Positions 7,319 through 51,874 of a stretch of 64,000 nt of DNA are shown here, in pieces (position 1 is the first letter of the stretch; every line of letters begins with the position of its first letter). A model generated the notes under the pieces. That model saw only the letters and a list, made by a program, of their open reading frames with translations. It did no database searches and had not been told where the DNA came from. Location: NCBI GenBank assembly GCA_003344405.1, contig NOWV01000015.1, forward strand, positions 1 to 64,000, written 5' to 3'. A program made the translations under genes and the position numbers. Origin of the DNA: Trichoplax sp. H2. Lineage: Eukaryota.

Positions 7319-10300
7319 TTATTTATCTCGATTTAATATGGTTTCCGCGACCGAACGAAGACCACAAGCAAAGAGAGCCTTAACTAGTGCCAACTTTGTA
7401 AATGTTTCACCCATTAACTTACAATGTGAATCGAGCATGTCTACACACTGTTGATCAGTATCATTACTGTTGTCTTGAGAAATTTTCTTAATGTTAGTGT
7501 TGGTGAAATCTAACTCTCTTGCTAAATTTTTCCAATCAGGGCCTACTTTCTTAGAAATGATATTGATATAGGAGCTTGCAGCTACAAATTTACGGTATTA
7601 ACAATTCATTAAATTTCAATTTACTCTTACATTAAGCTATCCGTAAAGCATTTGTAAATTCATTTAATGCATACTACTAAGCACGATACAGTAATGGAGT
7701 TAAAAAATAAATAGCAGCCGGGTGACAAATTACATTTGGGATTAAGCTCAATAATGTAAGTAGAGTAAAAATGGATAATGTTAAATTAGTACGGTCATAA
7801 ACTTACGCGAATCCGGGCTGACGATGTAAATATCAACTTTTTGACCTTCGATATCATCAATTTGTCTTAGAACTGCATCATTTCTACCATTATCGTCCGT
7901 ATCTTCTACTATCGCAGTCACAAGGATAAATATAAATGTTTAATAAGAGCAAATATAGGATTGAAGAAATTGTCTAATGGCATGTCTTAAAGGTAAGTTC
8001 ATTAATTTGGCGGTACAAGGCACATTGAATGCGTTCGAGCGAAAACTAAAATCATTTCTGAGCTAATATAGCCCGATTTTATCGGTGTTGGTACCGTACA
8101 GCTGTTTTATTTTAAAATATATGCGGTTGTTTGCTAGCAGTAGAATTTACATTAAGCTTTTAATTGACGACGTTAAAGTCAATGCGCATATTAAAATGGA
8201 AGGGATTGAATCAGTAAACGATAAAGCTAGTATAGCTAGCACTTTAAGTCATCTATACAGAAATGAATTAGACTTTTTAGTCCACAGTGGGCTGGACTAG
8301 GAATTTCTTACAGACTTAATATTTATTGATATTATACATGCAAAGAAAATGAGGGGAACTGATGTATAACTTAGTGTAAGAAATTATCGATTTACTAATA
8401 AATACGAAAGCAAAATTAGTTCCGTAAATCTAATAGCTCATTTATGTCAAGTACTACAAGAATATAAATCAAAATCCAAGAATTGCGAATTAACTAATGT
8501 TTATCAAAATTTATCCAGCAAGGACGCGAATTTATCACTAATTAACTTACCGGATGACATAACCCACTTATGGGTAGATCCGCATTCATAAACATCGCTG
8601 CAATCGCAAAATATTATATCGGAGCTGCCATCGATAGGATTAGATACAGGATTAAAGAGATTACAGCTAGGACATTTTATAAAGTAAGAACAATCTGATT
8701 TTTCACATCTTGGCATCCTTTCTTTAATCAGGGATGATAGTTTATTCCGAAGAAATTCATATGGCTTCTTCTCATTTATGGATTTTTTCACCTTTGCTTC
8801 TATTTGTAGCTGTAATTGTGGTTTATTTGGTACCATTCGATAGCGATATTGGATACCAATATAGGAACTCTCTTTTTTAACTACAATATCATAACAATCT
8901 TCTTTCAGCCGATATTTTGCACACTTGTAACGTGGCTCAATCTCTGACTTTTTCCATTCTTTATAGCAAGATACAAGTAAACAAAATAAAATGCCATCAG
9001 GAATATAAGGCATTTGTGATGGCTTAAATCCAACGTAAAGCCATCCTGACACTTTAAATCCCTGGCAATCAAATTCTTGGCTATTTGAACGAAATAAATA
9101 GGGCACGAAATACTGATCAGGACAACCATCATCTTCTTTACTGACCTTGCAAATAATGTCATAAGATTCCATTAAATCTAATAAAAATTTTCTTTCCTTT
9201 TCTTCTACTCCGAGCTTGTCGAATTTGTCATTAATATAGTGTTGCGACATGATTCCTGTATTTCGAGCGACTTCATATTCTGCATTTATTGCTAGTCCTT
9301 TACTATCAGGTTTATCTAACTGAATAATTGAACGAAATACATTTAATAGCCATTCAACTTGAGTAACAACTTTTCCTTTGACAGGTTCTTTTTGGCAATA
9401 AACGATTTCTCCTAGATCATGAAGATAGAGTAACATTTGATGAATATCTTCAATGCCGTCGCATAATTTGTACTCTTTGGCTAATAGCTCGATTTCTTCA
9501 GCTGTCATAATTCTGCTAACACTCTGATTTAACTTTGTATGAAACTTTGCCGCTTCTTCATTAAATCGATCAGGAAATGTATGTAATATAGCTGCCATAA
9601 TATACCATTTAAGTGGAATTTGAGAGAAACGATCAATGAAGGGTTGATGATTAACAAAGTCCCTTAGAATATTATGTAATTGTCCGCAATTTTTTTGACG
9701 CTGCAATCGCGTTTCTTCACTGTTATCCTTGTCATTACAGTTAAATATAATTCCAGATCCATATATATGATCAGCATAAGAAGGAAATTCTCGAAGAATA
9801 GTATTTTTAAATATCTCAAATCTTTCTTGACAGGCCTTTTCATCACCTAATTTATCAGCGTGTGTCCCGACTAAAATAACCATAGGCCATGCGATATCTT
9901 CTAAAACACCATCTATTTCGGCCTTTGTCCTAGCAATACTTTTACTACTACCTATAATTGAAGCAAGCCATTCTTGTAGGGCTTCCAAGTATGTCATTTC
10001 AGTATTATTGCCTTCTCGATTAACGACATGATTGTTCATATCTTGAGACATATCTAGGACGAGAAGATAAATGCAATTGTGCGATAGGAATGGTTGATGA
10101 GTTATGTGATAAATAGAATGACCAGCAAAGTCCCATAGTTTACCGTAATGGCAGTGATCTATTACTGAAGCTTGATCTGATTCAGAGCTTCCTCGAAAGT
10201 AATTCTCAAGAAAATCTAGTGGAATCATGTCTTCATCAGCCGGCATAGCCTGAGGACTGGTCTCGACGAGATTGCTTGCATAAGCAGTACTATCTAATCG

Positions 10301-13300
10301 AATTAGTGGCGATGGTGTCGAGGATTCAATATCATTCAAGCTGGAATCAGTATATGATTCCTCTTCTCGTATTTGGCGTTTAACAGTTTCGATCGCTGTA
10401 ATGACTTTTCTAGCTAGAACTGCTTTAAAATCATCAACTGATTTATCATCCATGTTATAAGTGACCAATTTGACAAGTTCTTTTGTAATTACTGCTGCTG
10501 TTGTCGCTCCAACTGCTAGAATCAAGCCTTGTCGTATAAAAGCTTGAATAAGACATGATTTTCCAACATTTTGCGGACCGGTTATCATGATCCTAATAAA
10601 GTCATTACGACAGGATCCGCATCTTCTAGCTTTAACATAGGCTTCCTTATATTCTTTTTCTTAGGATAAATATGAATATTAAATATGAATAAAGAACGAA
10701 TAAAATTATTTTATTCATGCTTCATTTTCAATTAACTTTAGCTATAGTATTCTACGAAGTAATCCAATCTGTAAATCTGCACTACAATGCATTTAAAATT
10801 ATCTCAGTTTGAATCTAAATACATAAGACAACGGTACGAATTAAGGCTGTCGCCAATCCTAACAACTGTACAACCGTATCTATGGCTATTTAACTACTTG
10901 ATAAAAATAATGACGCTAATGGTGTAACTTAGAATACCTTCGGCAGACTTCGATGCCTTTATATTTTCGTCTTGAGTTTTATCTTCCTGTTCAGCTAATG
11001 GCTCTTCTCCTACATTAAATGAATATCGATCTTCAGAGTAACTTACGTCATTTTAATTCAAAGATTATTTATAACTAAATTCCTCGAGCTGATACAGTAA
11101 AGGCTAGCGATAGTAGCAAATTCTTTACCTTTAAGAATGCTTTCTATACTGATCCCACAGTATTGTAATGCATTACATAATTCGTTAAGCACCTTATCGT
11201 CATGCTGAGGTAGTGTTTCTAATAATGTTTTCATGCTCCTAGAATGGAAGTAGGCTTAGTTTAAGATCTCGCCTTAAAGTGATTTATTTTAGTATCAAAT
11301 ACGGTGTTTCAGTTCACTACTACTTCCAAATAAATAATGTGAAATAATGATAGCAAATATTAAAATGCTAACTCATGATCATTTGGTTTGGCAAAAATAG
11401 CAGATTGTTGAGATGGAGTTAAAATTTCTTTTGATCGCAGATATGAAGTAACCGCAGCGAAATTTTGTAGACAATCTCTGCTTTGTAGTGCGTAAATGTA
11501 AATTCGGTTCTGCTTTTGCTCATTAAATGTTTCAGAAGCCTTTTCAGATGGCAATTTAGTATCAGATGTTGCGGCATCTAGACATTGTAGGCGATTAATA
11601 CCATTACTTGCTCGTCAATGAAAGAAATAATGATCGCATGCTCATGGTCATGACTGCTGTATTAACAAGTCTGGCGATTAATAAATTCTCACTGTTGGTG
11701 GATACTACACCTTTGTATATGTCATAACTGGAATTCTCTGAATCTACTGTATCTTCTTCGTCTATATATAAAAATAAAATCAAATTTAAACTCTAATGTA
11801 AAGATTGAATTTTCTTACCTAGAAAGGGTTCAACGTTCGACCACTAGAACTACGTTTTAAATGCAAAGTACAATCTTAATTAGATTACTAACCTTCAGTA
11901 TCATCTGTTGCACTAATTCTGGGATCTACATTTTCCAAGTCTATAAATGTTTAGATAAAAGGATAACGTAATAAGTCTAATTAGCATAGGCTTCTAAATA
12001 TCGATTATCGCATAAATGAACTCTAATTTTCTCTGACTATGTAAGTATTAAAAAATATATTCGCTCCGTCTATTTAATGAAGTTATGATTTTCAGTGCTT
12101 TATAGTTGTAATGACTTGACTGTGTGTTTGTTCATAACTTTAAAGAGTCTTAATTTTTAAAGTAGTTGTATACCTTGATAAAATTCTTCCTCGTGAATAG
12201 ATTCATCATCAATCTGATTGCCTAATATTATCAAGAAATCATTAGATGAAACTAACTGAATCAAAGACTTACAATATAGCTACTAAGGTAAGTCAATTTC
12301 AGCAGGAGTATACTACAATACATTACAACCACATTTATGGTACATTAAAATTACCTTCAGAGGATCCACGGCCATCGCCGTAAAAAAGCTTCAATCTAGC
12401 TTCTACGAGAGACAAACGATGCAAAATATTAGTTTAGGCTCAAAATCCATAATGAATAAAGACATAAACGTTTGCTAAGGTATTGCATTGCGATTAGTAA
12501 TTAGAACTGTACCTTTAACACCAGGTTCACTTTTACTGGTAAGGATTTTGCTTGATGGACTTTCTGATTATAATTATTTAGAGTAGAGAAAGTGAGCGGT
12601 GGTAATTCGTATAAGTTTACATACCAGTATAAGAGAAATGCTCATTATACCGTACTTTTGATAATGCTTTTAAATTCTTCTTCATCTGTAGAACTTTCTT
12701 GTAGCTTAGCTTTAAATGTCGAAAATTTCGAAAGGGTATTTTAGACTGACAAAATTTATAACAGCAAAAGGTATAAAAAAAATATTGGCAATGAAATCGA
12801 TTACTACGATACCTTTACTAGAAACGATTTACCAATATTAGAGAAATGTACAGAGTATATTTATAGGTTAAGATGAATTCATGAAATATCAAAAATGCTA
12901 GGTACTTGACAATTATAATCAGATGGTTGCTAACTAGGATGAAGTTCTATTTTCCAAAATGATATGATTGCAATTACTCGACTGCATGGTTAACTTTAAT
13001 TAGTCATAATATTAAAGCGGTTGCATACCTTGATGGAACTTTCCGTCTTTAACGGATTTGTTATCCACTAGAATATCTAATAATTATAAATAAATATATT
13101 GTCATTAATTGTCCTGTTGGAGGTACTAAATTAGATTAATTTAGCAGGAGCATACTGTGATATTACATAGCCATGTTTATCAAAAAAAGGAAATTACCTC
13201 GAGAGGACTGAACTTTAGTATCAAAAGAAAGTTTTATTCTAGCTTCTAATTTAAAAATTGATATGAGTAATAAGCTTTAGCCGATGACATTGATGACAGA

Positions 13301-16300
13301 TAAAGAGAAAACTTTGGTAAGGTATCACCAGTTGTGATTATTACTGTACCTTTAGCGGGAGCTTTTTTCCTGCTATAAAAACTTTCATCTGTTTTATTTC
13401 CTAATTATTCAAGGAAAAGACAGATAGATAGTCGTAATGAATTGTGCATACAGATTGACAGACTTAAAACAAATTATTGAAAGATACATAGTACTCATTG
13501 ATTGATTCGTTATGAACAGAAATTGCGTTACAATTTCGAACATAATTGGGCATAATTATATACCACTGAATATCAGACGAGATAAATATGTAGTTTGATT
13601 CTTAAATTATTTGCACTCATTCATAATTCTAAGGTATAATTATTGCTGAAGTAGCAAGATACCATGAAGGAATTCTTGGCCAATGGAAGACTCATCAACA
13701 GAGTGATTGCCTAGTAATTAATTATATGAAATCATCAAGATGAAGTAAACTTAATCAATCTGTTATGATAATTAGCAGTCCCATGATCCAACATAAAGGA
13801 AGATTACTTAATGCATCGTATAGTAAAATCACCTTGAGAAAACTTAATTTCTTCGTCCAAAGAACTTTCTTGTAACTTGGCTTCGAACATCAAAAAATTA
13901 AACAAAAAGTGCATTTTAGACCAACAAAATTCATGACAGCATAAGGCATAGAATATTAGCCATGAAATTGATTACTACCGTACCTTTACTAGAAGCAATT
14001 TCTTGATGTGGTAAGCTGTTCTTTGATTTTCTTTCTGATATTCAAAGCGAGAAAGAAAATCAATCTGAATTCATGTTTTAGCTGAGAATACAAATCATCA
14101 AACGATGTAATACAGCCTAATATAAGTTACCGATGCCTTGAGGTGTATTCTTTTTCTTCTTTGCCTTACTTTTACGGCCTGATGCTAATTGCCCTATCTT
14201 ACTTGCAGTTGACCCAATCAATCCTGAGAAAGTGCTACTAGCGGCGACTATTTTTGATTCTACAGCAACGCCAAAAATTTAGTTAGCTGTTAAGTATCTA
14301 TTTTACTCTTATCGTTTCTTTGCGTAACAGAATACTGTTCTAATGCGATAACGTTTCTTTCTTATAGTTATCAGACTAGCATAATATAAATAATATGTTT
14401 AGAAGTTAATGTCTTATGATTGATTACTTACAGTCTGAAAATAAAATTAAAATTTATCAGACACTATAATGAAAGCCAAACAGTAACGAATACAGGTCAA
14501 CTGATATCAACCTAATATAAGCTAGTTACTGCTTTTTTAAGAGATTACATGTCTGTATTATGGTTAGTCTCCATCAGCAAGCAATGACTTTGCGTTAAAA
14601 AGTAGCATAGTAATATAGTTTGAAGCTAACATTATAATTATGGATATTGATCTTAATTGCACGGTTTGGTATCTTATGTTCAAGCTCACAATAAGTTAGC
14701 TCCTGTAATAAGATTAGATCTTCGAAGTACTTGCACTATTTTGCTTTCGATATATCAAATGGATAATTCAACGTAGTTTAAACTAGTATTTCAATGGTAA
14801 AGTCGAGGTGATTACCGCTTTAGCTGACATTTAAATAAATGGTTAGTGGAAAACTTTTCCAGATAGCACAAATAGAGCTGTTATGGAGCCAAGCTCCGAA
14901 ATAATAAAGGCCTTGTTAATTAAAACATCTCATATAAATCGTTGTTTGTTCCAGTATTCTAATAAACGTTAATGAATACTTATTTATTGATAAGGTTAAT
15001 GTCTAAGTAATTGAATACTAATACCTAAATGTAAGGTGTAATTTGTGCGGAGCCTTAAGGCTGTAATTAGCTTAAATAAATTTATTATTGTTAATTAGCG
15101 TTAACTTATACCGATTTATGTTAACTTCTTCTATTTAAATTCCTATACTATACAGTGTAAGTCGCTATGTCTAAGATACCAATACATGAACCATCGGCGG
15201 AGGCCGAGACTATATAGACTCGAGGACTAAATTAGCTGTTCAGTTCCATTTTAATCATTTTTAGATCCACTTGATCATTATTGCTAGGAATTTCTAACGT
15301 ACTTTTTAGTAAATTCTTTTATTAGGATTTATCTCAATAAAGTAAAGTCCTTAAACCTATTACCCGTTGGCTACTTATCTGTGTAGTCGAGAGTTAGTTC
15401 AACTACGATAAATCGCCTAAGTCAGTTGGAGACACGAGTAATCGTGACACTAGTGTAAGACCCGTTCGAAAAGGGAAATTCGTAACAAAACCCTATAACT
15501 TTTTATGAAGTGAATCACCTACGGAAATCCGGACTGATTGATAACGGGACTATTCCTTACATTGAGGTACATCTACAAGTTCTATCAACAGTTTCCTTCA
15601 TCTATTCACTTTAGAGTTACTCATTTAAATGACTCCTTTCTTTCAATATAGTGTAGGTAACGGCATAAATCACTGACGTGAAGTACGATATACCTACTAA
15701 AGGTAAAATGGCTTCATAATCATCTGAACTTACCTTCATTAGCAGGTTCATTTTGCTTTGCTTCTTGTCGTAACGTTGTACCTAGTTCTTTAATCGACTG
15801 CATTAAAGATCCTTCTAAGNNNNNNNNNNNNNNNNNNNNTGACAAAGCTAAGTACTTACTACCACTCATTCGTTTATTGATAATTACAACGGCTTTTATA
15901 TGTGCGCCGTCAACACTTACAGTGTAACGTTGTACAATACATAGTTTATGATATCCATATCTAGAATTAGGCATACTTGTAAATTGTAAATTAGTCACGA
16001 ATATTGATTCTATAATTATACAGCGTGAGTTAACTATCAATATGGACTGTAGATAATAACGCAGTTATCATCCATCCATCTTAAGCGTAGCATTACAAAA
16101 TACATATATAGAAATACTGTAAGACATATCAAACGGCATAAATCACTGACGTGAAGTACGATATACCTACTAAAGGTAAAATGGCTTCATAACCATCTGA
16201 ACTTACCTTCATTAGCAGGTTCATTTTGCTTTGCTTCTTGTCGTAACGTTGTACCTAATTCTTTAATCGACTGCATTAAAGATCCTTCTAAGACTTCACA

Positions 16301-16504
16301 AAATCCATAAAATTCTAAGTCGTTTTTTCTTCTTAAAATTGATATAAAAGATTTCGGTCCTTGATTTTTTATTTTTCTTAACTCCTGGTCTGATAGAATG
16401 CTTCGATTATGCAAAGTAATGAAAATGTCCAAAGAAGTAATGTTAACTAGGATGTCATGCTTATATTGACGGATAACATCGTTAATATGCCAACTAAGAC
16501 CCAT
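7319..16504 (-). CDS. Roco-family gene A: CARD - micro-exon linker - CARD - Roc GTPase - COR - death domain, ~20 coding exons, ~1290 aa if all exons are included
   Basis: Exons: 16504-16207 (CARD-like, MGLSWHINDVIRQYKHDIL...FYGFCEVL); 14259-14131; twelve micro-exons between 14034 and 11711; 11577-11373 + 11238-11129 (split CARD, ...YLRSKEILTPSQQSAIFAKPNDHE/SMKTLLETLPQHDDKVLNELCNAL); 11009-10938; 10659-8551 (Roc: GPQNVGKS, WDFAGH, LVGTHAD; COR-like: LLYLHDLGEIVY, VEWLLNVFRSII, LMESYDII, YFVPYL); 7905-7807; 7581-7319 (DD, IISKKVGPDWKNLARELDF...CGLRSVAETIL). All junctions are GT-AG and frame-compatible. Confidence 0.8.
11711..14034 (-). repeat. Array of duplicated 48-54-nt phase-1 micro-exons in gene A
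   Basis: Exons 14034-13984, 13880-13833, 13710-13663, 13400-13350, 13245-13198, 13076-13029, 12709-12656, 12563-12513, 12402-12355, 12221-12174, 11940-11893, 11761-11711. All have AG/GT borders, lengths divisible by 3 and no in-frame stops. Three exon types recur together with homologous flanking introns. Confidence 0.75.
15659..16292. other. Assembly gap (N 15820-15839) with an uncollapsed near-identical overlap: 15659-15819 vs 16132-16292
   Basis: The same ~160 bp, including the 3' end of the gene A CARD exon, lies on both sides of the N run and differs by about two substitutions. Confidence 0.8.
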
Positions 16505-19004: not shown

Positions 19005-19400
19005 CTAAATTGAGGATAAAAGATGATATTTCGTAGCATCATGTATAGCGCACTCGTATATCTTGAAAGTTGAAAATGTTAAACCTGGATATTGTAGACG
19101 ATTGTCCGAAAACGCAATACTGTACTCGTAAATCCTATTCCACTCTTTTCTTTGTATAGGGTGATCTTTTTTCAATTTTTCAACTATATTTGGTTCTCTG
19201 CACTCGCATAAAACTTCTAATATTGTATCAAGCTTTGCTTTTGAGCCGAATTCAGAATACCATGCATCCAACAGATCATTACACTGGCGAAATCTGCCAT
19301 GGTTTGAATCAACTATTTCGTCAATGTTATTCGAAGACAAATGTAACTTTTTACCAAATTCGGTAAACTTTGCTTAATTTATATTATCCGCAATATATCT
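19005..19400 (-). pseudogene. Relic duplicate of the gene B terminal death-domain exon
   Basis: Reads YIADNIN*AKFTEFGKKLHLSSNNIDEIVDSNHGRFRQCNDLLDAWYSEFGSKAKLDTILEVL, homologous to 21685-21414. It has an in-frame TAA and no phase-1-compatible acceptor. Its downstream sequence (~19050-19145) matches the gene B 3' region (~21305-21405). Confidence 0.7.
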
Positions 19401-21413: not shown

Positions 21414-24400
21414 TTATTCTAAATAATCCTTTTTCAATTGGTCCGCAATTTTTGTCTCTTTGCATCCACGCAAAATTCTAAATATTGTATCAAACTCTGC
21501 TGCTGAGCCGAATTCAGAATACCATGCCTCCAACAAACGAAAGCACTTGCTAAATCTGCTAGCATTCGAATCGACTATATCGCTAATGTCATTCGAAGAT
21601 AAATATAACCTACGACCAAATTCTTCTAACTTAGCTGATTTTATGTTATTGGCGATGGATACGAAGATATCATGCCTTTTAGAATCTAAAGGACATCAAA
21701 ATATTAAAGCAATCAATAAATTGGGTGGAATTGCTAATTCATTGTCATTGCCTAATTTCCAATTATAGCACATCTATATCTATATATTATTGGGAATACT
21801 GAAAATCATAGACAATGAATTATTTTATTTTAGGTAGTCTTAACTTAGTATTGAACAAATGAGTAGATTTTACATTGAAACTGGTTTTAGTATGATAATG
21901 ACAATTCATTCCTGTTGCGAAACTATGGCAATGGATTAATAGTTTTTAAAACAATGAAATGACTGCGCTACAAAAGTTATACCGTACTTAGTGAGAAAGT
22001 ATCATCAAGCTGTTACATGTTCTTAAAAGCTATTTGAGACAGCTAGATGACCATTACTGACTTACCATCTTGTATTGGATCCATAGCGTTTTGAGTTGCT
22101 GTTCCTCCTTGTTCAATATTTGCAGATTCTTGTGCAACGGGTTTAATATCCACAGATTTGCGTTAATAGAAGCAAGTAACATATAAATAAACATGAAGTT
22201 ATTAAATTTTTTCACATTAAAACTACCGGCTCATTCAAGTTGCTTGATATGAAATTACTGCAGGTTTTGCAACATAATTCTATCCATATATTTTTAACGA
22301 ACTCTATACTTACTTCTATGAAATTAAAAAAGCGACAAAAAAAACAATCAGGATCAATTTGAAAGATTCTATTAACTTATATAATTTAGAGCTCATTCTT
22401 CCTTTTATTACACTACTTTAAAAGCCTAAATGAGATCTACGTTAAACTATTTATCACTATTCAAACATTTACGATTTTATTGGAATATGAGTGAGGCTCC
22501 AATTTCAGACATCAAAACATTATTTTACGGCAAAAGAAATGAGAAGGATAATAAAATTGTAGCATTTATTCGCTAATAGTTCAAATATTCACTGCTAATA
22601 AATTGATTAACATTTAATCTAGTTAAATCGATAAAACGACTAAAAATCCATTTATTTTTACGTACGTAGTTTATGGATGTCTACCGCTGATTGAGACTAA
22701 AACTGATGTAATGTTGATTATTATTCGTTAAATAGACGGTGTCAACTCCAAAACTCATAGATAGATTTCAAGTTTTTTGCTAGTGACTTAGCTGACTAAA
22801 GCTAAATTAAATAGAAATATCGGTAGTATCCCAGGTAATATTAAAATGTCCAGCCAAAATCAAGTTATAACCTTTAGGTCAATTTTACTTGCATTTACTG
22901 TTATCAGACTTAGCCACGAATATCTAGCAGAATTGGGATAACTTAAAAATTAACCTTATTGGCCGGAATGGTAATGAAAGAAGGAATTGAGATATTAATA
23001 GATTCTTAATGAATCAACTCTCAGCTACTCGTCTAGTCAAGAGAAGTAACTTATAATTCATTTTGCTAATATGATATTTTTTAAATTTAGTCTGCAATTA
23101 AACATAAAATTTTTATCTTATTTGGCTATACCTAATGATATTGTCCACCCATGGGCAGATTCACATTCATAAATTCCATTGCAATCGCAATAGAGCAGCT
23201 TTAAATTATCTTGAACCGGATTCTTTATTTGTAAAAATCTATCGCAAGGAGATAGAGGACATTTTATAAAATATAAGCAATCTGAATTTTGGCATCTTGG
23301 CATCCTTTCCTTAATCAATGATTCCAGTTTATTTCTAATAAATATATACGGTGGCTTTTCATATATCAGTTTTTTTACTTTATCCTTTATCTGTCCCTGT
23401 AGCCTAGGGTTATTAGGTATTATTCGATAGCGATATTGAATACCAATATAGGAACTCTCTTTTTTAACTATAATGTCACAAAAATCATTTTTCAGGCGAT
23501 ATTTTGCACACTTGGAACGCGGTTCGATACTTGACCCTTTCCATTCTTTATAGCAAGATACAAGTAAGCAAAAGAATATACCATCTGGAATATAATGTAG
23601 TTTTGATGACTTAAACCCAACATATAACCATCCCGACGTCATAAATCCTTTGTGATCAAATTCTTGATTATTTGAACGAAATAAATAGGGTACAAAATAC
23701 TGATCTGGGTGATTATCATCTTTATTACTGATCTTGCAAATCATGTCATAAGATTCCATTAAATCTAATAAAAACTTTTTTTCCTTTTTTTTTACTTCTA
23801 GCTGATCGAATTTGCCATAAATATAGTGTTGCGACATAATTCCTTTATTTCGAATTGCTTCATATTCCAAATCCATAGCTAATCCATTACTGTCAGGCTC
23901 ATCTAGCTGAATAATTGTACGAAATATATTTAATAGCCATTCAACTTGAGTAATGACTTTTCCTTTGACAGGTTCTTTCTGACAATAAACAATTTCTCCT
24001 AGATCATGTAGATAGAGTAACATTTGGTGAATATCATCTTTTCCTTCACATAATTTATACTTTTTCGCTAGAAGCTCGACTTCTTCAGCCGTCATAATTC
24101 TACTAACACGTTGATTTAAATTTGTAGAAAATTTTACCGCTTGTTCATTAAATCGATCAAGAGATGTGTGCAATATAGCTGCCATTATATACCATTTGAA
24201 TGGAATTTTAGAAAAGTGATCAATAGAAGGTTGATTATGGACGAAATCTTTCAGGATATTATGCAATTGACCACAATTTTTTTGACGTTGCAATAGCGTT
24301 TTTTTACTGTTATCTTTATCATTGCAGTTAAATATTATTTTTGATCTGTATATATGTCTAGAATAAGAAGGAAGCTTTTCATTAATACATTGACAAAATT

Positions 24401-37060: not shown

Positions 37061-37377
37061 ATATCGCTGATAATACAAATTCAATTAAAGTAATCGGATT
37101 TGGTCGAAAGTTATATTTATCTCATAATGATGTTGACGATATAGCCAATTCGAATGGTACCAGATTTGATAAGTTTATTTATCTTTTGGAGGAATGGCAC
37201 TCTCAATTTGCCTCCACAGCAACGTTTGATATATTATTAGAAACTTTGTATTCTAGTACTGAAGTAGTAGTAGCTGAGAAGTTGAAGAAGAAATACCCTA
37301 TATCAAGTAGAAGTGGAGCTAAGACACGATTTACGAGTACTGTATTGTATTTTAGGATAATTATCCACAATATCTAA
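37045..37377 (+). pseudogene. Orphan duplicate death-domain exon downstream of gene C
   Basis: YIADNTNSIKVIGFGRKLYLSHNDVDDIANSNGTRFDKFIYLLEEWHSQF...VAEKLKKKY is homologous to the terminal DD exons of genes B and C. The frame is open, but the 5' end abuts a tandem duplication and I found no phase-1-compatible acceptor. Confidence 0.55.
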
Positions 37378-41961: not shown

Positions 41962-44900
41962 ATGGATCAAGAGCAACGTCAAGCTATCCTCGATCATTGG
42001 CATACACTAGCCGAATCGATGCCCAGTAATCATATGACAAATAGTCTAATTACAGAAGGAATACTCTCGCCAAATGATTTACAGGAAATTAATGCCAAAG
42101 AAACTGAAAACAAAAAGAATACTACCATTTTGACTAAAATTTTAGCCTCAGTATCGCCTGATTGCTATGCCATCTTTATTGATGCTTTGAGACAGATTCC
42201 CAATAAGAACAGCCGATTAGCAGACATGATTGAAAGCCGTTTTAAGAAACAAGCTTCCGCTGATTATAGAAGCGACGCTAGTAAATCGAAGAATTTATCA
42301 AGTGCTCATAAACGACAAACAGTAGATCAGTTAGGTAAGGAAATAAAGTAGTAACGGCAGTTTTTCTCATTGTAAAGCGATTAAATTACTCAATTAGTGT
42401 GTTAATATGAAAGTATAACTTATAAAAATTCGAGCCTAGTCTCATTGCAGGACTAGTTACTATAGATAAGTAGATTAGAACCAGCGCTATTAAAATTGAA
42501 CATTTCTTTACTTCGAACTTAATTTTGGGGTTATACCGTAACCATGGACTACCATTTGTGCATATGAACGCATATACACTGTTTTATTTGTTTGACTCAC
42601 CGGCATCCATTAGATATAAAATTGATTGATTTCATCAATAAAGATAGTGGTAGTAGGCATTGTAACCTGTAACTGACGATTATGAAACAACTGTAATATT
42701 TTAAATCAGTTTTAAGGAACAAATTTCGCTTTTCGCTGTATTTAAAATCATCAGCACTCTAAATCGGCCAATGAATCTCGTTGAACTTAAGATTCGTAAT
42801 TCTGCTACGGTTTCAATAGAATTTGTTAATTACTCGTGTAAATGGCACCATGCATGCAGTAAATATGACTGATCTCTCTAGCTATCCCTAATATACTGTA
42901 CGGATACATTAACATTGAGCTATAGATACTACCTATTTCCGCTAATTAGATTAAAACTCTGCTATAGCTTTATTAATTGACTTAGAAAAATAATGAAATC
43001 GAAGGCTACTATCAATATTAAAACTTTAAAACATGTATCAGAAGCACCAGTTTACATCAAATAGATTTTGCGCAATTTTTGTTAACCGTTACCTCTTAAT
43101 AAGTATGAAAATTTCTAGCATTTGCGTGAGTAACAGGAAATTAATCATAAATGAATAAGATTATCCCAAATAATTACGGATCCCCGACTACCCACACCTA
43201 TAGCATACAGCGCTTATCTTAAATACGATCGTTTGTAATTAAAATTAACGCAAAAGAGAAACAGGTAAAGCTTTTGTCAAATTTGTAACTTTTCTCGAAC
43301 TCAAACACTTAATTAATATTTTAGATAAGCTACCGAAAAAATGCTCAAGATCAATGACTCAAGAGCATCGTAAAATGTTAATAGACAAACGTATATTACT
43401 TACTCAAAAATGTCAGGATCAAATCTTACCGATATATGAATATTTACTTGGAACGAATGTAATAACATCATTCCATAAACAAACAATCGAATCTAAATCG
43501 ACGGCTTTTGAGTAAGGAATTTTTATACAGTACATGTTCAATAACTGTTAATCAATATTCTATTCTAATATACAATGTCAAGCTAAATTACTAGTTTGCT
43601 TATTTACTGCAAGAATGAATTTTGTAGTTAGAGAGCAGTTATCGTAATTGTTAAATTTTTTTAACAGAAAAGTTTGCACTTTATTGGATATTCTGCCTGA
43701 ACGTGGCGATAGAGCCTTTGATGAGTTTTGCAAAGCTTTAACAAATTTTAAAATAACCGTAGAAAACTTCAATACTGGTAAGCATTAAAGTTTACGAATA
43801 GGCCTAACGATTAAAACTGAACGATATGATACATGTGTCACACACCACTAGTGACAAAGTAGTCTACACACGCCAATCCTTGCGTAGAACGCCACTTACT
43901 AACTTAAAGAGGCGAGATTAGCTATATCACCAAATAATTCAGTTCCAACAACCGAATACTATGGTATAATTATAGCGTCACAGATGATGTAGACGAGATA
44001 GTCAGAAATTTACTATCATTTATTACTGAAGGAATCTTGGCACCCAAGATTATAGTCTTTACAATTAAATATCAATTGAAAAACTAGTTGACTATCTAAC
44101 CGACTAACGAACTAAAAAGGAATCTTCAGGCACCAGCCTTTTATAGTCTCGTCAGAAACTCCTGGTTAGGACGAGCTTACGCATCGTAACAACATGATTA
44201 TCCTATTTTCTGGTAGAAATAACAATAAAGTGATCAGAGTAGAAAATAGTACGATAACTACGTAATGAATTTAGATTTTCAATTTATAGTTTCATTATAC
44301 TCAACTAAATCAATAGTTGGTAATTTCAGATTATTACGTACANNNNNNNNNNNNNNNNNNNNTTTTTTTAACAGAAAAGTTTGCACTTTATTGGATATTC
44401 TGCCTGAACGTGGCGATAGAGCCTTTGATGAGTTTTGCAAAGCTTTAACAAATTTTAAAATAACTGTAGAAAACTTCAATACTGGTAAGCATTAAAGTTT
44501 ACGAATAGGCCTAACGATTAAAACTGAACGATATGATACATGATTATCCTATTTTCTGGTAGAAATAACAATAAAGTGATCAGAGTAGAAAATAGTACGA
44601 TAACTACGTAATGAATTTAGATTTTCAATTTATAGTTTCATTATACTCAACTAAATCAATAGTTGGTAATTTCAGATTATTACGTACAGTTTTCGTAATT
44701 TAGTAAGTACAGCTTTTTTCGAAACTTGAGCTCTATAGGGTACGATGCGCTTACTGAATAGAAATTGCTATCATTTATTTTGCAATTAACTTATCAGGCA
44801 AACAATTATCTTTGCTAATATCGATATTACATTGCACAACTACGACATTCATTTAAAACGTAATTTAGTTATATTACTTCGCAATATATGATAAATTCGA

Positions 44901-46196
44901 TATGAAGCCATTTCTTTGCTTCACCTTTCATTTGTAAGCAGCCATTAATAATCATTAATTTAACAATTGTGAATCTTATTCAAATCAAAAGGGGTTGATT
45001 TTGAAGACACTCGAAAAGACACAGGTACTTCTATTTAAAGAAACAATTTGATATTTTCCGGAATTCTTTGTAATTTTATAAACATAACAGTGCTTATTTT
45101 ACGGTAAGCTCGATAATATTCAGCTATAATAGGGTCTCTTATAGTCAAAATAGAGGAACCAAATAGAAATATATAATATTCTAAATCTGTTTCTTTAGCA
45201 AGAGAATAGTAATTAAATTTATGAAAAGACCATGCCTTTCTAAATCACTTACGATTGAAAGATATTCACATCATTACTTCATCAAATTGAATTAGAAGTG
45301 AATAAAAAAATTTTTATCTATACTAATATATACCTTACGAATTAGAAAGGGATAGATTGAAATTCAGTGCAAAGAATTACTGTTTGCTGATAGCATTTAC
45401 TTATCTATTTTAGACAAGATTTCAATTGTAGAGTCTAAAAATTGAGCTAGTAAATTACATGCCTTGATTGTTATGACCACAATTACTTGTAATATAGTCG
45501 ACATTGAATCAAAAAGTGAAAATTGATAGTATGAAGGTGTTGTTTCTATAATGCTTTATCGTTATGAATTTTTGTTGATGATAGTGGTTGATTTTATGCA
45601 AATATAATAACGAAAGAATTATCATTTTTAGATATTACCCGGTACATAGTCAGCACTGGATCAGAAATGGCAAACCGACAGAAACAAGGTATTCAGTAAT
45701 TATTCACAAAAGCAGAATATTATAGAAGTAAGAGAATGCTAGTTATTATACTTATGATGATATGAAGATTATAAAATTTGTTAAGTTTAGATGTTACTCA
45801 GCAAGGATCTGACAGTGAATCAATACATGCAAACCAGCAGGATGAAGATGGTATGTAGTAGCTACTAGTAAAGAATGTAATAAAGGAATTTTGTAGATAC
45901 TAGCCATTGACTTGGAACCTATGTGATGCAATTTACAAAATCTAGATATTTCTCAATACTTTTTTGATGTGGCGGAACATCTGGAAGAGGACTGGATTAA
46001 CTTAAAATTAAAATTAGATAATGCTGGAAAAATTGAAATCAAAAACATTCAAGACAAATATAAGAAAAATTATGATCAGGCCTATGAATTTTTAGAGCAA
46101 TGGTTAATAATTTATGGCGAAAATGCAACAAAAAAGCGATTAATCGGAGCATTGAAAGCCATACAAAGAAAAGATATAGCAGATAAAATAAAATAA
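41962..46196 (+). CDS. Death-fold adaptor gene D: CARD - CARD - DD, 7 exons, ~356 aa
   Basis: Exons: 41962-42334 (CARD, MDQEQRQAILDHWHTLAESM...LITEGILSPNDLQEI...CYAIFIDAL...LADMI); 43325-43511 + 43668-43777 (CARD, MTQEHRKMLIDKRILL...YLLGTNVIT...AFE/KVCTLLDILPERGDRAFDEFCKAL); 44992-45024; 45632-45688; 45791-45850; 45946-46196 (DD, FFDVAEHLEEDWINLK...QAYEFLEQW...ALKAIQRKDIADKIK). The exon copy at ~44375-44484 is an assembly duplicate. Confidence 0.85.
43657..44688. other. Assembly gap (N 44343-44362) with an uncollapsed allelic overlap: 43657-44342 vs 44363-44688
   Basis: Near-identical on both sides except for the 356-bp insertion plus its target-site duplication. Confidence 0.85.
43836..44191. 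mobile_element. Solo LTR, 356 bp, intronic, polymorphic
   Basis: Termini TGTCAC...GTAACA, flanked by the perfect 5-bp direct repeat ACATG (43831-43835 and 44192-44196). The duplicate haplotype shows the empty site with a single ACATG at 44538-44542. Confidence 0.8.
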
Positions 46197-49100: not shown

Positions 49101-49530
49101 TACAAAATTTAAATACCGATCAACTGCGGTGTCCTGTCTTTACTATATCAAACACGTTCACAGGGAAGGCTAACATATACGAAAAACATGACAATTAAAG
49201 TCATCTGAAATATTTGTGATTACCAATGTTTTCTAAAATTGAAACGTTATACCGATGGAATGTACTTTCATCATCAATTCCATGGCCAATCGTACTAATG
49301 ATTGATCAGCAAAGATATTTATGAAAGACTTTTAAGCTACACCACTTGAGCCTTCAATATATCGCTATTAATATAATCGTTCGAAATGGGCTATCCTAAT
49401 TCTTCTTGGAAGAGAGGTAATTGTGGTACTGACTTTACAAAATGGATATACAGTACAGTAAGCATATCGCTCCATCTCATTGACTGGAATAGAGTAGTGT
49501 CATGGTTGAAGTTGTTGCTATTGCTAATAA

Positions 49531-51874
49531 TTAACTACTCATATTAATCTGCGAGACAAGTCTTGCATTGCTTAATTGGTCTAATCTCTCAGCAATGGCT
49601 CCCAAACCTGCTGATATCAAAGCATTCATGAGGAAGCCAACATAGGCATTTTGTGGTTGAGTTTCTTTCCAATAATGAAGCATTGCAAAGCAACGTTGAT
49701 CTGTAGTAGTTTGATCCACTTCTATTTTTTTCAAATCCTCAAACTCTAGATTTAATTGAATTCCAACATCCTTCCAATCAGTTCCAATGCTTCCGTAAAT
49801 ATCTCTAAAAAAGCATTTCGCTGAAGTACAATTAATTTGCAGTTAAAATAATGCCCTTAATAACGTTATAATCCATGTAATACGAGCATGTTTGATTAAG
49901 ATAAAAGGTAATGGAAGAGATGTCTATCTCATTGGATACAGACAAGATTAGTAAATAGTGAGGTAGATAGAGTTAAGTGTAGTCTTTCATCATGGTAAGC
50001 CTCTTAACAACGACTAACAGCACGTTCTACTTTCAAAATAGAGTATAGCAAGAATTGTCTTTTATCGCATACAGACGAGACTAGTTAAGAGTTATGTGTA
50101 GTCCTTAATTGTGGTAAGCCTGCAAACACCAAGTCACTATTCAAAAATAGAGTACTCGTATAACAAGAATTGTCTTGTATAGCATACAGACAAGACTAGC
50201 CCAGAGTTATATGTAGTCCTTGATTATGGTAAGCCTACAAGCACCAAGTAACTACTCAAAAATAGAAAACTCGTATAACAAAAATTGTCTTTTATCGCAT
50301 GCAGACAAGACTAGCCAAGAGTTATGTGTAGTCCTTGATTGTGGTAAGCCTACAAACACCAAGTAACTACTCAAAAATAGAGTATAACAAGAATTGTCTT
50401 CTATCGCATACAGACTTATGTGTAGTCCTTGATTGTGGTAAGCCTACTAACGCCAAGTAACTACTTAAAAGTAGAGCACAGAAAGATTTACTGGATTGCC
50501 ATCTGTAGCCTGCAGACAAAACTCGTCAAGGGTGGTAGATAGTTATGTGCAATCCTTCATTCTTGAAGCCTATGAACGACTACTTATAGCATGGAACTAC
50601 TTTTAAAAACAGAGTAGAACAAGATTTACCGGGTTGTCTGCTATCGTATACAGACAAGACTAGTTTAGAGTGAGGTAGACAGAGTTGTAGGTAGAGATTC
50701 ATTGTGGTAAGTCTATCAACACCAAGTAATTACTTAAAAAATAGACTACAGAAGCATTTACCGGATTGTTATCTGTAGCGTAAAGACAAGAGTCACAAGA
50801 CTCATTAGAGAGGTAGTTAGAGTTATGTTTAGTCCTCGATGATTGTAAGCCTATTAGCGACTACGATCAGCAAGGAACTACTTCAAAAATAGAGTACAGT
50901 AAACTTTACCGGATTGTCGAAGATGCGAAGCCGTATTCTCTTGATAGTCGAAATCTTCATCACCACTTTCTTCAGACTCTTCTATAACAGCCATATAGAA
51001 GACAGGAGTAAGTTAGAAATAGAGCAAAGACATCGTATTACAACTATTATGGTGAGAATAATAAATGCTTTCGTTCAAAGTTTGAAGGAGACAACAAAGT
51101 GATTCCATTATTCACTGCAGTCATCTTCTTTTCAACTGTTGGGGTAAACTATACCATTTTGAATTTGAATTTTTTTACGTGTTATTCTGCCACCACAACT
51201 TTACTAATAAAAATGATAAATTGCTATCAAAGACGTACAACGCTTCTATATTATTATGGCTGATTATGCCTCCTACTTTACACAAGCATTGAATGTAGGT
51301 GAAAGACAGTCATAGCCTGTGCTTTTACCATTTTTATATACTGTCTATCAACGGACTGCTGATTCCATCAAATTCATTTCATGCACTGAATTAACACTAC
51401 TGTATTTATCTCTGGATGCTAAGATCTACTGTAGTCTACTAGGAAAGTCGTTTTATGCTATTCTAGTATTTGATCCATGTCGAGTGTCCTGTCTGACGGT
51501 GCTCATTTACCTGATGGCATCCTGGCGTCTACTTCCAACTGAGTTGCTAAATCTCTTAGTCCTGCTCGCCTAATTGCGTTGACAATCTTGTCAAAATCCG
51601 ATTCAAATTTTCTCAATAAAAACAAGGTAACAAATTTGGTGACCACTTCTGGCATAGGCTGTTGTTGACTACAACGCAAGAGGCCTTCCTTTTCTAAACT
51701 AGTGACCACTTTATCAGCTAAAAGGTGAGTTAGCATAACAGAAAGACGTTCTTGAGTTAAACTACTCCTTAGACTGGCTAAATTTTGACGTAAAGCAAGG
51801 CCTTTATAGCTCGATTGGTCCATCAGATAGGTAAAATTGCGATGATTGTGTGCTTTGGAAGCAATCTCGGCCAT
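49531..51874 (-). CDS. Death-fold adaptor gene E: CARD-like - acidic linker - DD (RAIDD/CRADD-type architecture), at least 3 exons, ~241 aa
   Basis: Exons: 51874-51511 (ALRQNLASLRSSL...MLTHLLADKVVTSLEKEGL...FDKIVNAIRRAGLRDLATQLE); 50981-50910 (EESEESGDEDFDYQE...); 49820-49531 (DD, FFRDIYGSIGTDWKDVGIQLNLEFEDLKKIE...QRCFAMLHYWKE...LMNALISAGLGAIAERL). All are phase 1. Confidence 0.8.
49935..50910. repeat. Intronic tandem array, roughly 8 diverged units of ~100-140 bp
   Basis: Recurring cagacaagactag..agagttatgtgtagtccttgattgtggtaagcct..aacaccaagtaactact.aaaaatagagt. Confidence 0.85.

What the first reader, a model, noticed from the sequence alone, without database searches (positions are those of the whole stretch)
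7319..51874. Self-contained Roc-COR GTPase / death-fold signalling locus: three kinase-less, LRR-less Roco genes plus two adaptors
Seen: five adjacent genes built almost entirely from CARD, DD and Roc-COR modules (A CARD-CARD-Roc-COR-DD; B DD-DD-Roc-COR-DD; C helix-Roc-COR-DD; D CARD-CARD-DD; E CARD-DD). Established: the well-studied animal Roco proteins (LRRK1/2, MFHAS1, DAPK1) carry LRR/ankyrin repeats and/or a kinase. DAPK1 ends in Roc-COR-DD. Death folds build caspase-activating platforms (PIDDosome, apoptosome, inflammasome), several of them driven by STAND ATPases. Inference: a nucleotide-regulated Roc-COR dimer may replace the STAND module as the switch that clusters death folds, with D and E as co-encoded bridges to caspases. 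That would be a GTPase-based innate-immune or cell-death platform. Death-fold Roco genes have, to my recollection, been noted in basal animals, so the new part would be the clustered switch-plus-adaptor organisation.
Basis: partly seen in the sequence, partly recalled or inferred. Interest (0 to 1): 0.85.

Follow-up and report, generated by a model that had tools for sequence, protein, structure and literature searches.

The report
Placozoan death-fold Roco GTPase gene cluster
Five neighbouring Trichoplax genes, three Roc-COR GTPases carrying only CARD and death domains and two small CARD/death-domain adaptors, are real and at least three are expressed, but the gene family was already catalogued and whether the five proteins work together is untested.

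Summary
The window is Trichoplax sp. H2, and the five genes are the annotated models TrispH2_003507, 003508, 003509, the 'CRADD' model P0066 and 003511.

- **Domains:** three single-exon Roc+COR-A ORFs and nine death-domain ORFs pass Pfam cut-offs.
- **Exon chains:** The chains translate exactly to the stored 932-aa and 356-aa proteins, and to a 241-aa E. A and B rest on annotation only.
- **Gene A's first 'CARD':** it has no sequence hit but folds as an Apaf-1-type CARD (Z 13.2).
- **Gene E's CARD:** it stays below every threshold.
- **No other modules:** no kinase, LRR, ankyrin or WD40 signal was found.
two orphan death-domain ORFs, one of them broken.

ROCO genes with CARD and death domains in Trichoplax were published in 2014 (PMC4104024). 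A Roc-type 'AP-GTPase' displacing STAND NTPases beside death-like domains was published for bacteria in 2021 (PMC8195603). The adaptor–Roco link rests on adjacency and roughly 30% domain-type matches. Interest is moderate.

The parts
16208..16504 (-). Gene A (TrispH2_003507), exon 1: N-terminal CARD ('CARD1' type)
   Evidence: No Pfam or PDB sequence hit. AF2 model pLDDT 89.9. Apaf-1 CARD at Z 13.2, rmsd 1.6 A, 87 aligned; Foldseek TM 0.76-0.81 but E 0.04-0.09. Atlas CARD clusters score 0.91. 30% identical to the N-terminus of TRIADDRAFT_62404. Its link to the rest of A comes from the H2 model only.
11694..15788 (-). Gene A: about 15 small linker exons (42-114 nt), low-complexity Ser/Lys/Glu-rich, with an internal 1171-bp-spaced duplication
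   Evidence: Exon map of P0061 and repeats. The exon at 15735-15788 sits in the duplicated flank of the N gap at 15820-15839. Annotation only, not checked with RNA.
11127..11575 (-). Gene A: second CARD, split over two exons (11372-11575 and 11127-11237)
   Evidence: Pfam CARD E 2e-4, 21.7 bits against a cut-off of 23.9, at P0061 residues 404-459. Reciprocal best match with D's CARD2, 28% over 76 residues.
8552..10660 (-). Gene A: single 703-codon exon encoding Roc (with a roughly 100-residue insertion), COR-A, COR-B and a C-terminal Cys-rich element
   Evidence: Pfam Roc and COR-A above cut-off. Motifs GPQNVGKS, WDFAG and GTHAD present. AF2 model pLDDT 80.3. LRRK2 Roc-COR Z 24.9, M. barkeri Roco2 Z 23.9, C. 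tepidum RocCOR Z 20.8; Foldseek E 1.4e-16.
7322..7582 (-). Gene A: C-terminal death domain
   Evidence: Pfam Death 1.6e-13. FADD DD 9.8e-5 and RIPK1 DD in the PDB. Reciprocal best match with E's DD, 31% over 70 residues.
26885..28196 (-). Gene B (TrispH2_003508): two N-terminal death domains (27927-28196 and 26885-27136)
   Evidence: Pfam Death 4.1e-6 and 1.8e-9. 45% identical to each other. Exon map. The link to the Roc-COR exon comes from the H2 model only; T. adhaerens annotates DD2 as a separate gene, 61415.
23133..25253 (-). Gene B: Roc-COR exon
   Evidence: Pfam and motifs. 70% amino-acid identity to A, dN/dS 0.26, dS 0.72.
21417..21686 (-). Gene B: C-terminal death domain
   Evidence: Pfam Death 2.6e-7. 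50% identical to C's DD.
19008..19373 (-). Orphan death-domain ORF downstream of B, probably a decayed duplicate exon
   Evidence: Pfam Death 1.2e-10. 58% identical to B's C-terminal DD. An in-frame TAA in helix 1, and the region of the splice acceptor is not conserved. In no gene model mapped here.
31315..31632 (+). Gene C (TrispH2_003509), exon 1: 106 residues with no Pfam family
   Evidence: No Pfam hit. The loose ends of RNA contigs at 32330 in X15 and X7 read into the end of this exon. The spliced chain equals P0064.
32331..34427 (+). Gene C: Roc-COR exon
   Evidence: Pfam and motifs. A 2620-nt RNA contig spans it (X7).
34873..35732 (+). Gene C: 99-nt exon (34873-34971) and the death-domain exon (35448-35732)
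   Evidence: Joints 34427>34873 (3 runs) and 34971>35448 (2 runs), GT..AG. Pfam Death 24.5 bits on the ORF but 21.3 bits on the whole protein.
37045..37377 (+). Orphan death-domain ORF downstream of C, intact and beginning with ATG
   Evidence: Pfam Death 4.9e-5, 23.8 bits. No splice joint reaches it and RNA contigs stop near 37050-37067. dS about 0.7 to B's DD but saturated against C's DD.
41962..46196 (+). Gene D (P0066, 'CRADD' in H2; TRIADDRAFT_61417): CARD-CARD-DD, 7 coding exons, 356 aa
   Evidence: All six introns are seen as RNA joints. The chain translates exactly to P0066. Pfam CARD 3.3e-19 (2 stretches) and Death 4.8e-10. In the PDB, CARD2 matches RAIDD CARD at 2.3e-7, the DD matches FADD at 5.6e-6, and CARD1 matches Apaf-1 at 6e-3.
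49531..51874 (-). Gene E (P0082, TrispH2_003511): CARD-like domain, linker, DD; 3 coding exons, 241 aa
   Evidence: Joints 51511>50981 and 50910>49820 in 3 runs, GT..AG on the minus strand. Identical to the 241-aa P0082 over the 121 queried residues. Pfam Death 5.8e-10. FADD DD 1.2e-6 and PIDD DD 5.6e-4. The CARD is sub-threshold only.

Best explanation
This is a placozoan lineage-specific array of three paralogous ROCO GTPase genes. They arose by tandem duplication and death-fold exon shuffling. Each has a one-exon Roc-COR core flanked only by CARD or death-domain exons. Two expressed death-fold-only genes follow them: D (CARD-CARD-DD) and E (CARD-like-DD).

**Shown**
- The domains, the conserved G1, G3 and G4 motifs, and a predicted Roc/COR-A/COR-B fold like LRRK and bacterial Roco.
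- Purifying selection on the core.
- Spliced transcripts for C, D and E.
- No kinase or repeat module.

**Inferred**
- The Roc-COR unit acts as a nucleotide-gated dimerisation device. This is the established model for bacterial Roco proteins and LRRK2.
- That switch changes the proximity or valency of the attached death folds.
- The death folds nucleate homotypic DD and CARD assemblies, possibly through D and E, that recruit CARD-caspases or Apaf-1-like proteins in cell death or innate immunity.
- The upstream trigger is unknown, because no sensor domain is present.
For: **Roc-COR core.**
- Pfam Roc and COR-A above cut-off in all three genes.
- GPQNVGKS, WDFAG and GTHAD conserved in A, B and C.
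- The model of A's core (pLDDT 80.3, pTM 0.83) aligns to LRRK2 residues 1329-1859 at Z 24.9 and to C. tepidum RocCOR at Z 20.8. Single Rab and Arl GTPases span model residues about 19-340, which indicates one G domain with an insertion.
- dN/dS between A and B is 0.26.

**Death folds.**
- Nine death-domain ORFs above cut-off.
- D's two CARDs at E 3.3e-19.
- A's CARD1 has an Apaf-1 CARD fold.

**Transcripts and boundaries.**
- RNA joints for C, D and E in 2-3 runs, with exact translation to the stored models.
- The three Roco genes and E bear the locus tags TrispH2_003507-003509 and 003511. D (P0066) lies between C and E in the window, and its own tag was not shown.
- The flanks hold unrelated genes, a NuA4 subunit and CRT-like transporters.

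**Links between the Rocos and the adaptors.**
- Domain subtypes are shared: A-CARD2 with D-CARD2, A-DD with E-DD, and B's N-terminal DDs with D-DD.
- A paralogue, P0068, adds TPR repeats to Roc-COR-DD, giving an NLR-like layout.

**Literature.**
- The Roc GTPase is classed as an apoptosis-related 'AP-GTPase', and it displaces STAND NTPases in bacterial death-like-domain systems (PMC7159879 and PMC8195603, passages).
- Kamm 2019 reports two CARD-caspases and about twelve Apaf-1-like genes in H2 (PMC6321704, passages).
Against: **No functional data.**
- There are no binding, GTPase or cell-death data of any kind.

**The shared subtypes are a weak link.**
- They are only 28-38% identical.
- They were ranked within a set of 18 domains, not the whole proteome, so closer relatives elsewhere in the genome are not excluded.

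**Several assignments are soft.**
- E's CARD is below every threshold. The Atlas's own model of E is poor (pTM 0.45) and found no CARD by structure.
- E's CARD has only 2 relatives at E<=0.001 among 1.84 billion representatives.
- C's death domain is borderline in whole-protein context, 21.3 bits against a cut-off of 22.6.

**Gene models and expression.**
- The exon chains of A and B, including A's CARD1 and long linker, are annotation only, and the H1 and H2 models disagree.
- Presence of C, D and E in the same bulk RNA runs is not co-expression.

**Mechanism gaps.**
- No sensor module is present.
- Tandem duplication alone explains the clustering of the three Roco genes.
Confidence: 0.5

Rival explanations
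1. The cluster is a by-product of local duplication and carries no shared function. D is the general CRADD-type adaptor and E a FADD/RAIDD-like adaptor. Both serve the wider placozoan apoptosis network of Apaf-1-like proteins, CARD-caspases and other DD proteins, while the Roco proteins signal through other partners.
For: - The A-B duplication is visible, with dS 0.72, and orphan DD copies lie beside B and C.
- D's CARD2 is closest to RAIDD CARD, and the DDs of D and E are closest to FADD. H2 annotates D as CRADD.
- Similarity between the adaptor domains and the Roco domains is low, at 28-38%.
- Kamm 2019 lists many other CARD and DD proteins.
Against: - The five genes are adjacent with no intervening gene model seen.
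- Within the set compared, each adaptor domain subtype has its best match on a neighbouring Roco.
- D and E are not detectably derived from one another.
Confidence: 0.3
2. The death folds of the Roco proteins serve self-association or autoinhibition in a function unrelated to caspases, such as trafficking, cytoskeleton or phagocytosis as proposed for LRRK, DAPK1 and the Dictyostelium Rocos. They are not there for caspase recruitment.
For: - Civiero 2014 speculates that the placozoan ROCO expansion relates to chemotaxis and phagocytosis.
- The structural core is closest to LRRK1 and LRRK2.
- No caspase or other effector gene lies in the window.
Against: - CARD and DD are the only modules apart from Roc-COR.
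- A's CARD1 is closest to the Apaf-1 and CED-4 CARDs, which bind caspase CARDs.
- CARD-DD adaptors sit next door.
Confidence: 0.12
3. D and E are death-fold-only decoys that dampen Roco signalling, as the CARD-only and PYD-only proteins next to caspase-1 and ASC do in primates. They would not be bridges to caspases.
For: - They contain nothing but death folds.
- They lie beside genes with matching domain subtypes.
- The comparison with COP and POP proteins is recalled from memory, not taken from a call.
Against: - CARD-plus-DD is the classical bridging layout (RAIDD), not a single-domain decoy.
- The domains are old divergences, about 30% identical, not recent partial copies of the neighbours.
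Confidence: 0.08

Closest known systems
T. adhaerens ROCO repertoire described by Civiero, Dihanich, Lewis and Greggio 2014 (PMC4104024)
   Same: It is the same gene family and very likely the same genes. The paper lists at least 17 ROCO genes carrying CARD, death, TPR, LRR and 'AAA' domains. The paralogue TRIADDRAFT_62404 is named in the text.
   Different: - The paper does not mention the chromosomal cluster or the adaptor genes in the text I read. Figure 1 itself is not held.
- It reads 62404 as 'Ras-like domain plus ROC'. Here the P-loop segment and the rest form one G domain split by a roughly 100-residue insertion.
- Its 'AAA' label probably has the same origin, because in P0007 the AAA hit covers the Roc P-loop segment (residues 248-350).
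DAPK1 (ankyrin, kinase, Roc-COR, death domain)
   Same: A Roc-COR followed by a C-terminal death domain. Pfam's Roc model is described as 'Roc, domain of DAPkinase'.
   Different: There is no kinase, calmodulin-binding or ankyrin module. Extra N-terminal CARDs or DDs are present. The Roc domain carries a large insertion, and a Cys-rich element follows COR-B.
PIDDosome (PIDD1 DD, CRADD/RAIDD CARD-DD, caspase-2 CARD)
   Same: E has the CARD-DD layout of CRADD, and D's CARD2 is most similar to RAIDD CARD (E 2.3e-7). A large DD-bearing scaffold lies next to a CARD-DD adaptor.
   Different: - The scaffold is a GTPase rather than an LRR-ZU5-UPA protein.
- The DDs of D and E score best against FADD. 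For E, PIDD comes at 5.6e-4. RAIDD DD is not among the hits for D or E.
- D has an extra CARD.
- No binding is shown.
STAND platforms (Apaf-1 apoptosome, NLR inflammasomes)
   Same: An NTPase flanked by death folds. A's CARD1 has the Apaf-1 and CED-4 CARD fold. The paralogue P0068 adds TPR repeats.
   Different: The NTPase is a Ras-like Roc-COR that is expected to dimerise, not an AAA+-like NB-ARC or NACHT domain that forms rings. The three window genes have no repeat sensor.
Bacterial death-like-domain / AP-GTPase conflict systems (Kaur, Iyer, Burroughs, Aravind 2021, PMC8195603)
   Same: A death-like adaptor domain is fused to an AP-GTPase that stands in the place of a STAND NTPase, and further copies of the adaptor domain sit on neighbouring genes (passages).
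   Different: In bacteria the neighbouring copies carry enzymatic effectors and the genes form operons. Here the neighbours carry only death folds and are separately transcribed eukaryotic genes.
Bivalve and coral ROCO proteins with CARD, DD, SH2, OTU or glycosyltransferase modules
   Same: Roc+COR-A combined with CARD (for example P0029, P0031, P0033, P0036) or with DD (P0043, P0075), according to precomputed Pfam.
   Different: They are only 21-26% identical to the placozoan cores, are mostly unstudied predictions, and have different accessory domains.

Membership tests
ROCO (Roc-COR) GTPases | Roc GTPase domain with G1, G3 and G4 motifs | tested here: met
   Pfam Roc at 39.7-43.9 bits against a cut-off of 27. 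GPQNVGKS, WDFAG and GTHAD are present in A, B and C. Single small GTPases align over model residues 19-340 at Z 14-15.
ROCO (Roc-COR) GTPases | COR domain (COR-A plus COR-B) directly C-terminal of Roc | tested here: met
   Pfam COR-A at 44.2-49.6 bits against a cut-off of 35.3. The predicted model aligns through COR-B to LRRK2 1329-1859 (Z 24.9) and C. tepidum 434-938 (Z 20.8). COR-B rests on a predicted structure only.
ROCO (Roc-COR) GTPases | GTP binding and hydrolysis, and nucleotide-dependent dimerisation through COR | not testable with these tools
   This needs purified protein. No dimer prediction was run.
Death-fold superfamily (DD and CARD) | Sequence match to the Death or CARD profiles | tested here: met
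   Nine Death ORFs above cut-off. D's CARDs at 69.1 bits. Below cut-off: A CARD2 at 21.7 bits, E CARD at 13.7 bits and A CARD1 with no hit.
Death-fold superfamily (DD and CARD) | Six-helix bundle fold for the domains without a sequence match | tested here: inconclusive
   A CARD1 meets it, with Z 13.2 to Apaf-1 CARD, and 48 of the 50 listed entries are CARDs (the other two are a de novo designed protein and an NLRP3 pyrin domain). E CARD was not folded here. The Atlas model is poor and found no CARD.
Death-fold superfamily (DD and CARD) | Homotypic assembly with partner death folds | not testable with these tools
   This needs binding or filament assays.
CRADD/RAIDD orthologue (for D and E) | One CARD plus one DD, with both domains closest to CRADD | tested here: inconclusive
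   E has the two-domain layout, but its CARD is unassignable and its DD scores best to FADD. D's CARD2 is closest to RAIDD CARD (2.3e-7), but D has an extra CARD and its DD is closest to FADD. No phylogeny was made.
DAPK1 | Ca2+/calmodulin-regulated kinase domain and ankyrin repeats N-terminal of Roc-COR | tested here: not met
   There is no kinase or ankyrin Pfam hit on P0061, P0063 or P0064. There is no kinase, ANK or LRR motif in six frames of 5000-53000. Of 160 tblastn HSPs from 53 distant ROCO proteins, 0 lie outside the Roc-COR exons.
STAND NTPases (NB-ARC / NACHT) | NB-ARC or NACHT nucleotide-binding domain | tested here: not met
   Only sub-threshold P-loop matches (AAA_14, AAA_29, ATPase_2) lie on the Roc P-loop segment. 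The fold is Ras-like.
Bacterial death-like-domain / AP-GTPase systems (EAD principle) | The same adaptor domain on the NTPase and on neighbouring effector proteins | tested here: inconclusive
   Neighbouring genes D and E share death-fold subtypes with A and B, but they carry no effector domain.

The most novel reading that the evidence does not exclude
The locus encodes a 'Rocosome': a STAND-independent, GTP-gated death-fold platform. Roc-COR dimers of A, B and C would seed DD and CARD filaments through the co-located adaptors D and E to activate placozoan CARD-caspases. That would make it the animal counterpart of the bacterial death-like-domain / AP-GTPase conflict systems, and the ancestral state from which DAPK1's Roc-COR-DD core derives.
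Probability: 0.2. Interest if true: 0.7.

Novelty: new variant of a known kind. Interest (0 to 1): 0.4.

Why it matters
**What it could be used for.** ROCO GTPases (LRRK2, DAPK1) matter in disease, yet what the Roc-COR switch controls is still debated. A natural ROCO whose only outputs are death folds, with candidate adaptors next door, would be a minimal system for asking how a Roc-COR nucleotide cycle drives an assembly. It would also test whether animals have a GTPase-based alternative to apoptosome and inflammasome-type platforms.

**What is new here:**
- the locus-level picture;
- RNA-verified models for C, D and E;
- the structural assignment of a cryptic Apaf-1-like CARD;
- evidence that the reported 'Ras-like plus ROC' double GTPase is probably one Roc domain split by an insertion.

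**What limits it.** The genes are already annotated, the family was already catalogued, and the function is unproven.

Tried and rejected
**Runs that gave no usable answer**
- Complex prediction on A's DD with E's DD returned 'no answer' (score 0.00, controls not run). This is neither support nor evidence against binding.
- The genome search 'own' failed because no genome is held for this window. A genome-wide count of death-fold genes, the enrichment of the cluster and proteome-wide nearest neighbours of each domain could therefore not be computed.
- The search of earlier findings returned nothing for this genome.

**Weak or empty searches**
- hhalign between tiny in-window profiles was uninformative. 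The N-domain against the CARDs gave probability 36%. The comparison of E's CARD against the CARD profile included E itself and was ignored.
- A profile of E's CARD plus two Logan relatives against PDB sequences gave only Apaf-1 CARD at E about 0.4.
- The Atlas structure search for E found no fold with TM above 0.5.
- A search of the 1.84-billion representative library with E's CARD found only E itself and one 68%-identical fragment. It therefore gave no link to caspase CARDs.
- The 'longer' search with D's CARD1 found only D and its T. adhaerens orthologue.

**RNA contigs**
- Loose-end sequences at 38668-38672 were searched in the window and had no match.
- Run X6 gave no joints.
- The orphan DD at 37045-37377 has no RNA cover beyond about 37067. 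That is no proof of silence.

**Readings considered and rejected**
- That the window might be prokaryotic or use a variant genetic code. The standard code gives exact matches to the stored proteins.
- That the three Roco genes are pseudogenes. Their ORFs are intact, C is transcribed and spliced, and dN/dS between A and B is 0.26.

Full report
**What the window is.** The sequence is AT-rich (GC 0.28-0.42) and eukaryotic. The 718-residue ORF at 8507-10660 (-) is 99% identical to T. adhaerens TRIADDRAFT_61412. The Trichoplax sp. H2 proteins P0061 (TrispH2_003507, 1318 aa), P0063 (003508, 1087 aa) and P0064 (003509, 932 aa) map at 100% identity over their main exons. Gene D is P0066, which H2 names 'Death domain-containing protein CRADD' (356 aa; T. 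adhaerens orthologue 61417). Gene E is P0082, TrispH2_003511 (241 aa). Three N gaps (15820-39, 30758-77, 44343-62) have duplicated flanks. One of them puts a duplicated 18-residue segment into the A model.

**Checking the observation.** Each of the three large ORFs carries Roc and COR-A above Pfam's cut-offs. Nine ORFs pass the Death cut-off.
- **D:** two CARDs (whole-protein E 3.3e-19) and a DD.
- **A's second CARD:** 21.7 bits against a cut-off of 23.9.
- **A's first CARD (16208-16504):** no Pfam or PDB sequence hit. It is 30% identical to the N-terminus of paralogue 62404, which UniRef names a CARD protein. Its Atlas neighbours are CARD clusters (0.91). A three-sequence AF2 model (pLDDT 89.9) matches Apaf-1 CARD at Z 13.2, rmsd 1.6 A with 87 residues aligned. 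The Foldseek E-values were only 0.04-0.09.
- **E's N-terminal domain:** a CARD only by weak, concordant leads. These are Pfam E 0.067, E 0.0067 for its 68%-identical relative P0083, Apaf-1 CARD at E 0.13-0.4 and an Atlas score of 0.88. The Atlas structure search found no CARD.

**Exon linkage.** I laid contigs of four coded runs on 32000-51999. X15 is recorded as RNA, X5 and X7 behave as RNA, and X6 gave no joints.
- **C:** exon 1 reads into 32331 (loose ends in X15 and X7), 34427 joins 34873 (3 runs), and 34971 joins 35448 (2 runs).
- **D:** all six introns are seen. One joint maps ambiguously because its 32-nt exon has a 97-98% identical copy at 39769-39800.
- **E:** both introns are seen in 3 runs.

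Joined in a script, these chains translate exactly to P0064 and P0066, and to a 241-residue E with GT..AG introns. The first 121 residues of E match P0082, which is also 241 aa. The death-fold exon is thus joined to the Roc-COR exon in C, and D and E are separate genes. Their chains rest on the H2 annotation, and the older T. adhaerens models truncate A and split B.

**What else is or is not there.** No kinase, LRR, ankyrin, WD40 or TPR signal was found.
- Pfam on the full models lists only Roc, COR-A, Death and CARD above or near cut-off.
- tblastn with 53 distant ROCO proteins, which include LRR, ankyrin, SH2 and OTU forms, gave 160 HSPs, none outside the three Roc-COR exons.
- Six-frame motif scans of 5000-53000 found nothing. 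This last test is crude.

Two death-domain ORFs lie outside the five-gene scheme.
- **19008-19373 (-):** it has an in-frame stop in helix 1 and no conserved acceptor.
- **37045-37377 (+):** it is intact but has no RNA joint.

Both belong to the C-terminal DD type of B and C, at 44-58% identity. Flanking genes are unrelated: a NuA4 subunit and CRT-like transporters.

**Anatomy of the core.**
- GPQNVGKS (G1), WDFAG (G3) and GTHAD (G4) are conserved in A, B and C. G1 and G3 lie 136-142 residues apart.
- The AF2 model of A's exon (pLDDT 80.3, pTM 0.83) is disordered at residues 109-165.
- It aligns to LRRK2 1329-1859 (Z 24.9), M. barkeri Roco2 (Z 23.9), LRRK1 (Z 22.2) and C. tepidum RocCOR (Z 20.8). 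Whole Rab, Arl and Gtr GTPases span model residues about 19-340.
- There is therefore one G domain with a roughly 100-residue insertion, followed by COR-A and COR-B.
- The insertion probably explains two published labels. The 'Ras-like domain N-terminal of ROC' for 62404 and the 'AAA' label in Civiero 2014 both appear to be Pfam's P-loop-only hits falling on the first half of Roc.
- A conserved CPxC...CDC...H element follows COR-B.

**Evolution.**
- The A and B cores are 70% identical, with dN/dS 0.26 and dS 0.72. C is older, with dS saturated.
- Death-domain exons evolve faster, with dN/dS 0.49-0.61 among B's DD and the orphans.
- Domain types recur across the locus. A-CARD2 pairs with D-CARD2 (28%), A-DD with E-DD (31%), and D-DD with B's N-terminal DDs and with DD1 of paralogue 59581 (31-38%). 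A-CARD1 pairs with the N-termini of 62404 and 59581.
- These rankings are within 18 domains only.
- A further H2 paralogue, P0068 ('Nephrocystin-3'), is TPR-Roc-COR-DD.

**Mechanism.**
- *Shown:* intact GTPase motifs, a ROCO fold, death folds as the only other modules, and transcription and splicing of C, D and E.
- *Inferred from established ROCO and death-fold biology:* the Roc-COR unit is a nucleotide-dependent dimerisation switch, a model cited in PMC4104024 and PMC7159879. That switch changes the valency of the death folds. The death folds then seed homotypic assemblies that could reach the two CARD-caspases and the Apaf-1-like proteins reported for H2 (PMC6321704, passages).
- *Untested:* whether D and E are the bridges.
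- *Unknown:* the trigger.

**What is known.**
- Civiero et al. 2014 (section 5 and the figure legends read) report at least 17 ROCO genes in T. adhaerens with CARD, death, TPR, LRR and AAA domains.
- Kamm et al. 2019 (passages) do not use the words Roc or GTPase.
- Kaur et al. 2020 and 2021 (passages) class Roc as the apoptosis-related AP-GTPase. They describe bacterial death-like-domain systems in which it displaces STAND NTPases.
- CARD- or DD-bearing ROCO predictions also exist in bivalves and corals.
- Searches for the gene identifiers found only the 2014 review. None of my six searches surfaced the five-gene cluster. Supplements and figures were not visible to me.

**Verdict.** This is a new variant of a known kind, and interest is moderate at 0.4.

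Noticed in passing
window 15820-15839, 30758-30777, 44343-44362: Each of the three N gaps is flanked by near-identical duplicated sequence of 150-180 nt, which looks like unmerged assembly overlaps. The H2 gene model for A carries a duplicated 18-residue segment as a result.
   Followed up: partly
window 35800-36650 and 43830-44170: RNA-contig word depth is 10-100 times that of the neighbouring exons (130-2000 against 3-60), with many variant letters and loose ends. This is probably a dispersed repeat or a highly expressed element in C's 3' region and in D's intron.
   Followed up: no
window 38003-40400 (+): A spliced transcript with no ORF of note runs from 38668 to 39768, and from 39803 to 40325 through a non-canonical TA..CG junction. 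It uses a 97-98% identical copy (39434-39862) of the segment 44655-45084, which contains D's 32-nt exon. Its loose ends at 38668-38672 match nothing in the window.
   Followed up: partly
window 50043-50478: About four tandem copies of a unit of roughly 115 nt lie in E's second intron.
   Followed up: no
window 11894-13708 (-): In the H2 model, gene A's linker is built from nine mini-exons of 42-54 nt. A 1171-bp-spaced duplication lies within the array. None of this was verified with RNA.
   Followed up: partly
P0003 (TRIADDRAFT_62404) and P0002 (62406), on another T. adhaerens scaffold: These are close paralogues of gene A (81% and 87% identical), and their 90% clusters hold no H2 member. 62404 has WDVAC where the G3 motif should be, so the DxxG glycine is lost. 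This points to possible copy-number differences between the lineages and a GTPase-dead copy.
   Followed up: no
window 54818-55564 (+), 59533-61692 (-), 63104-64000 (+), 2838-3515 (-): The flanking genes are a NuA4 histone acetyltransferase subunit ORF, two divergently oriented CRT-like transporter paralogues, and a 225-residue Cys-rich ORF with no Pfam family.
   Followed up: partly
A residues 652-697 of the Roc-COR exon (window about 8570-8705): A Cys-rich element with the pattern CPxC, then 17-22 residues, then CDC, then about 10 residues, then H follows COR-B. It is conserved in A, C, 62404 and 62406, variant in B, and modelled as short beta hairpins. It may be a zinc ribbon specific to this ROCO subfamily.
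   Followed up: partly
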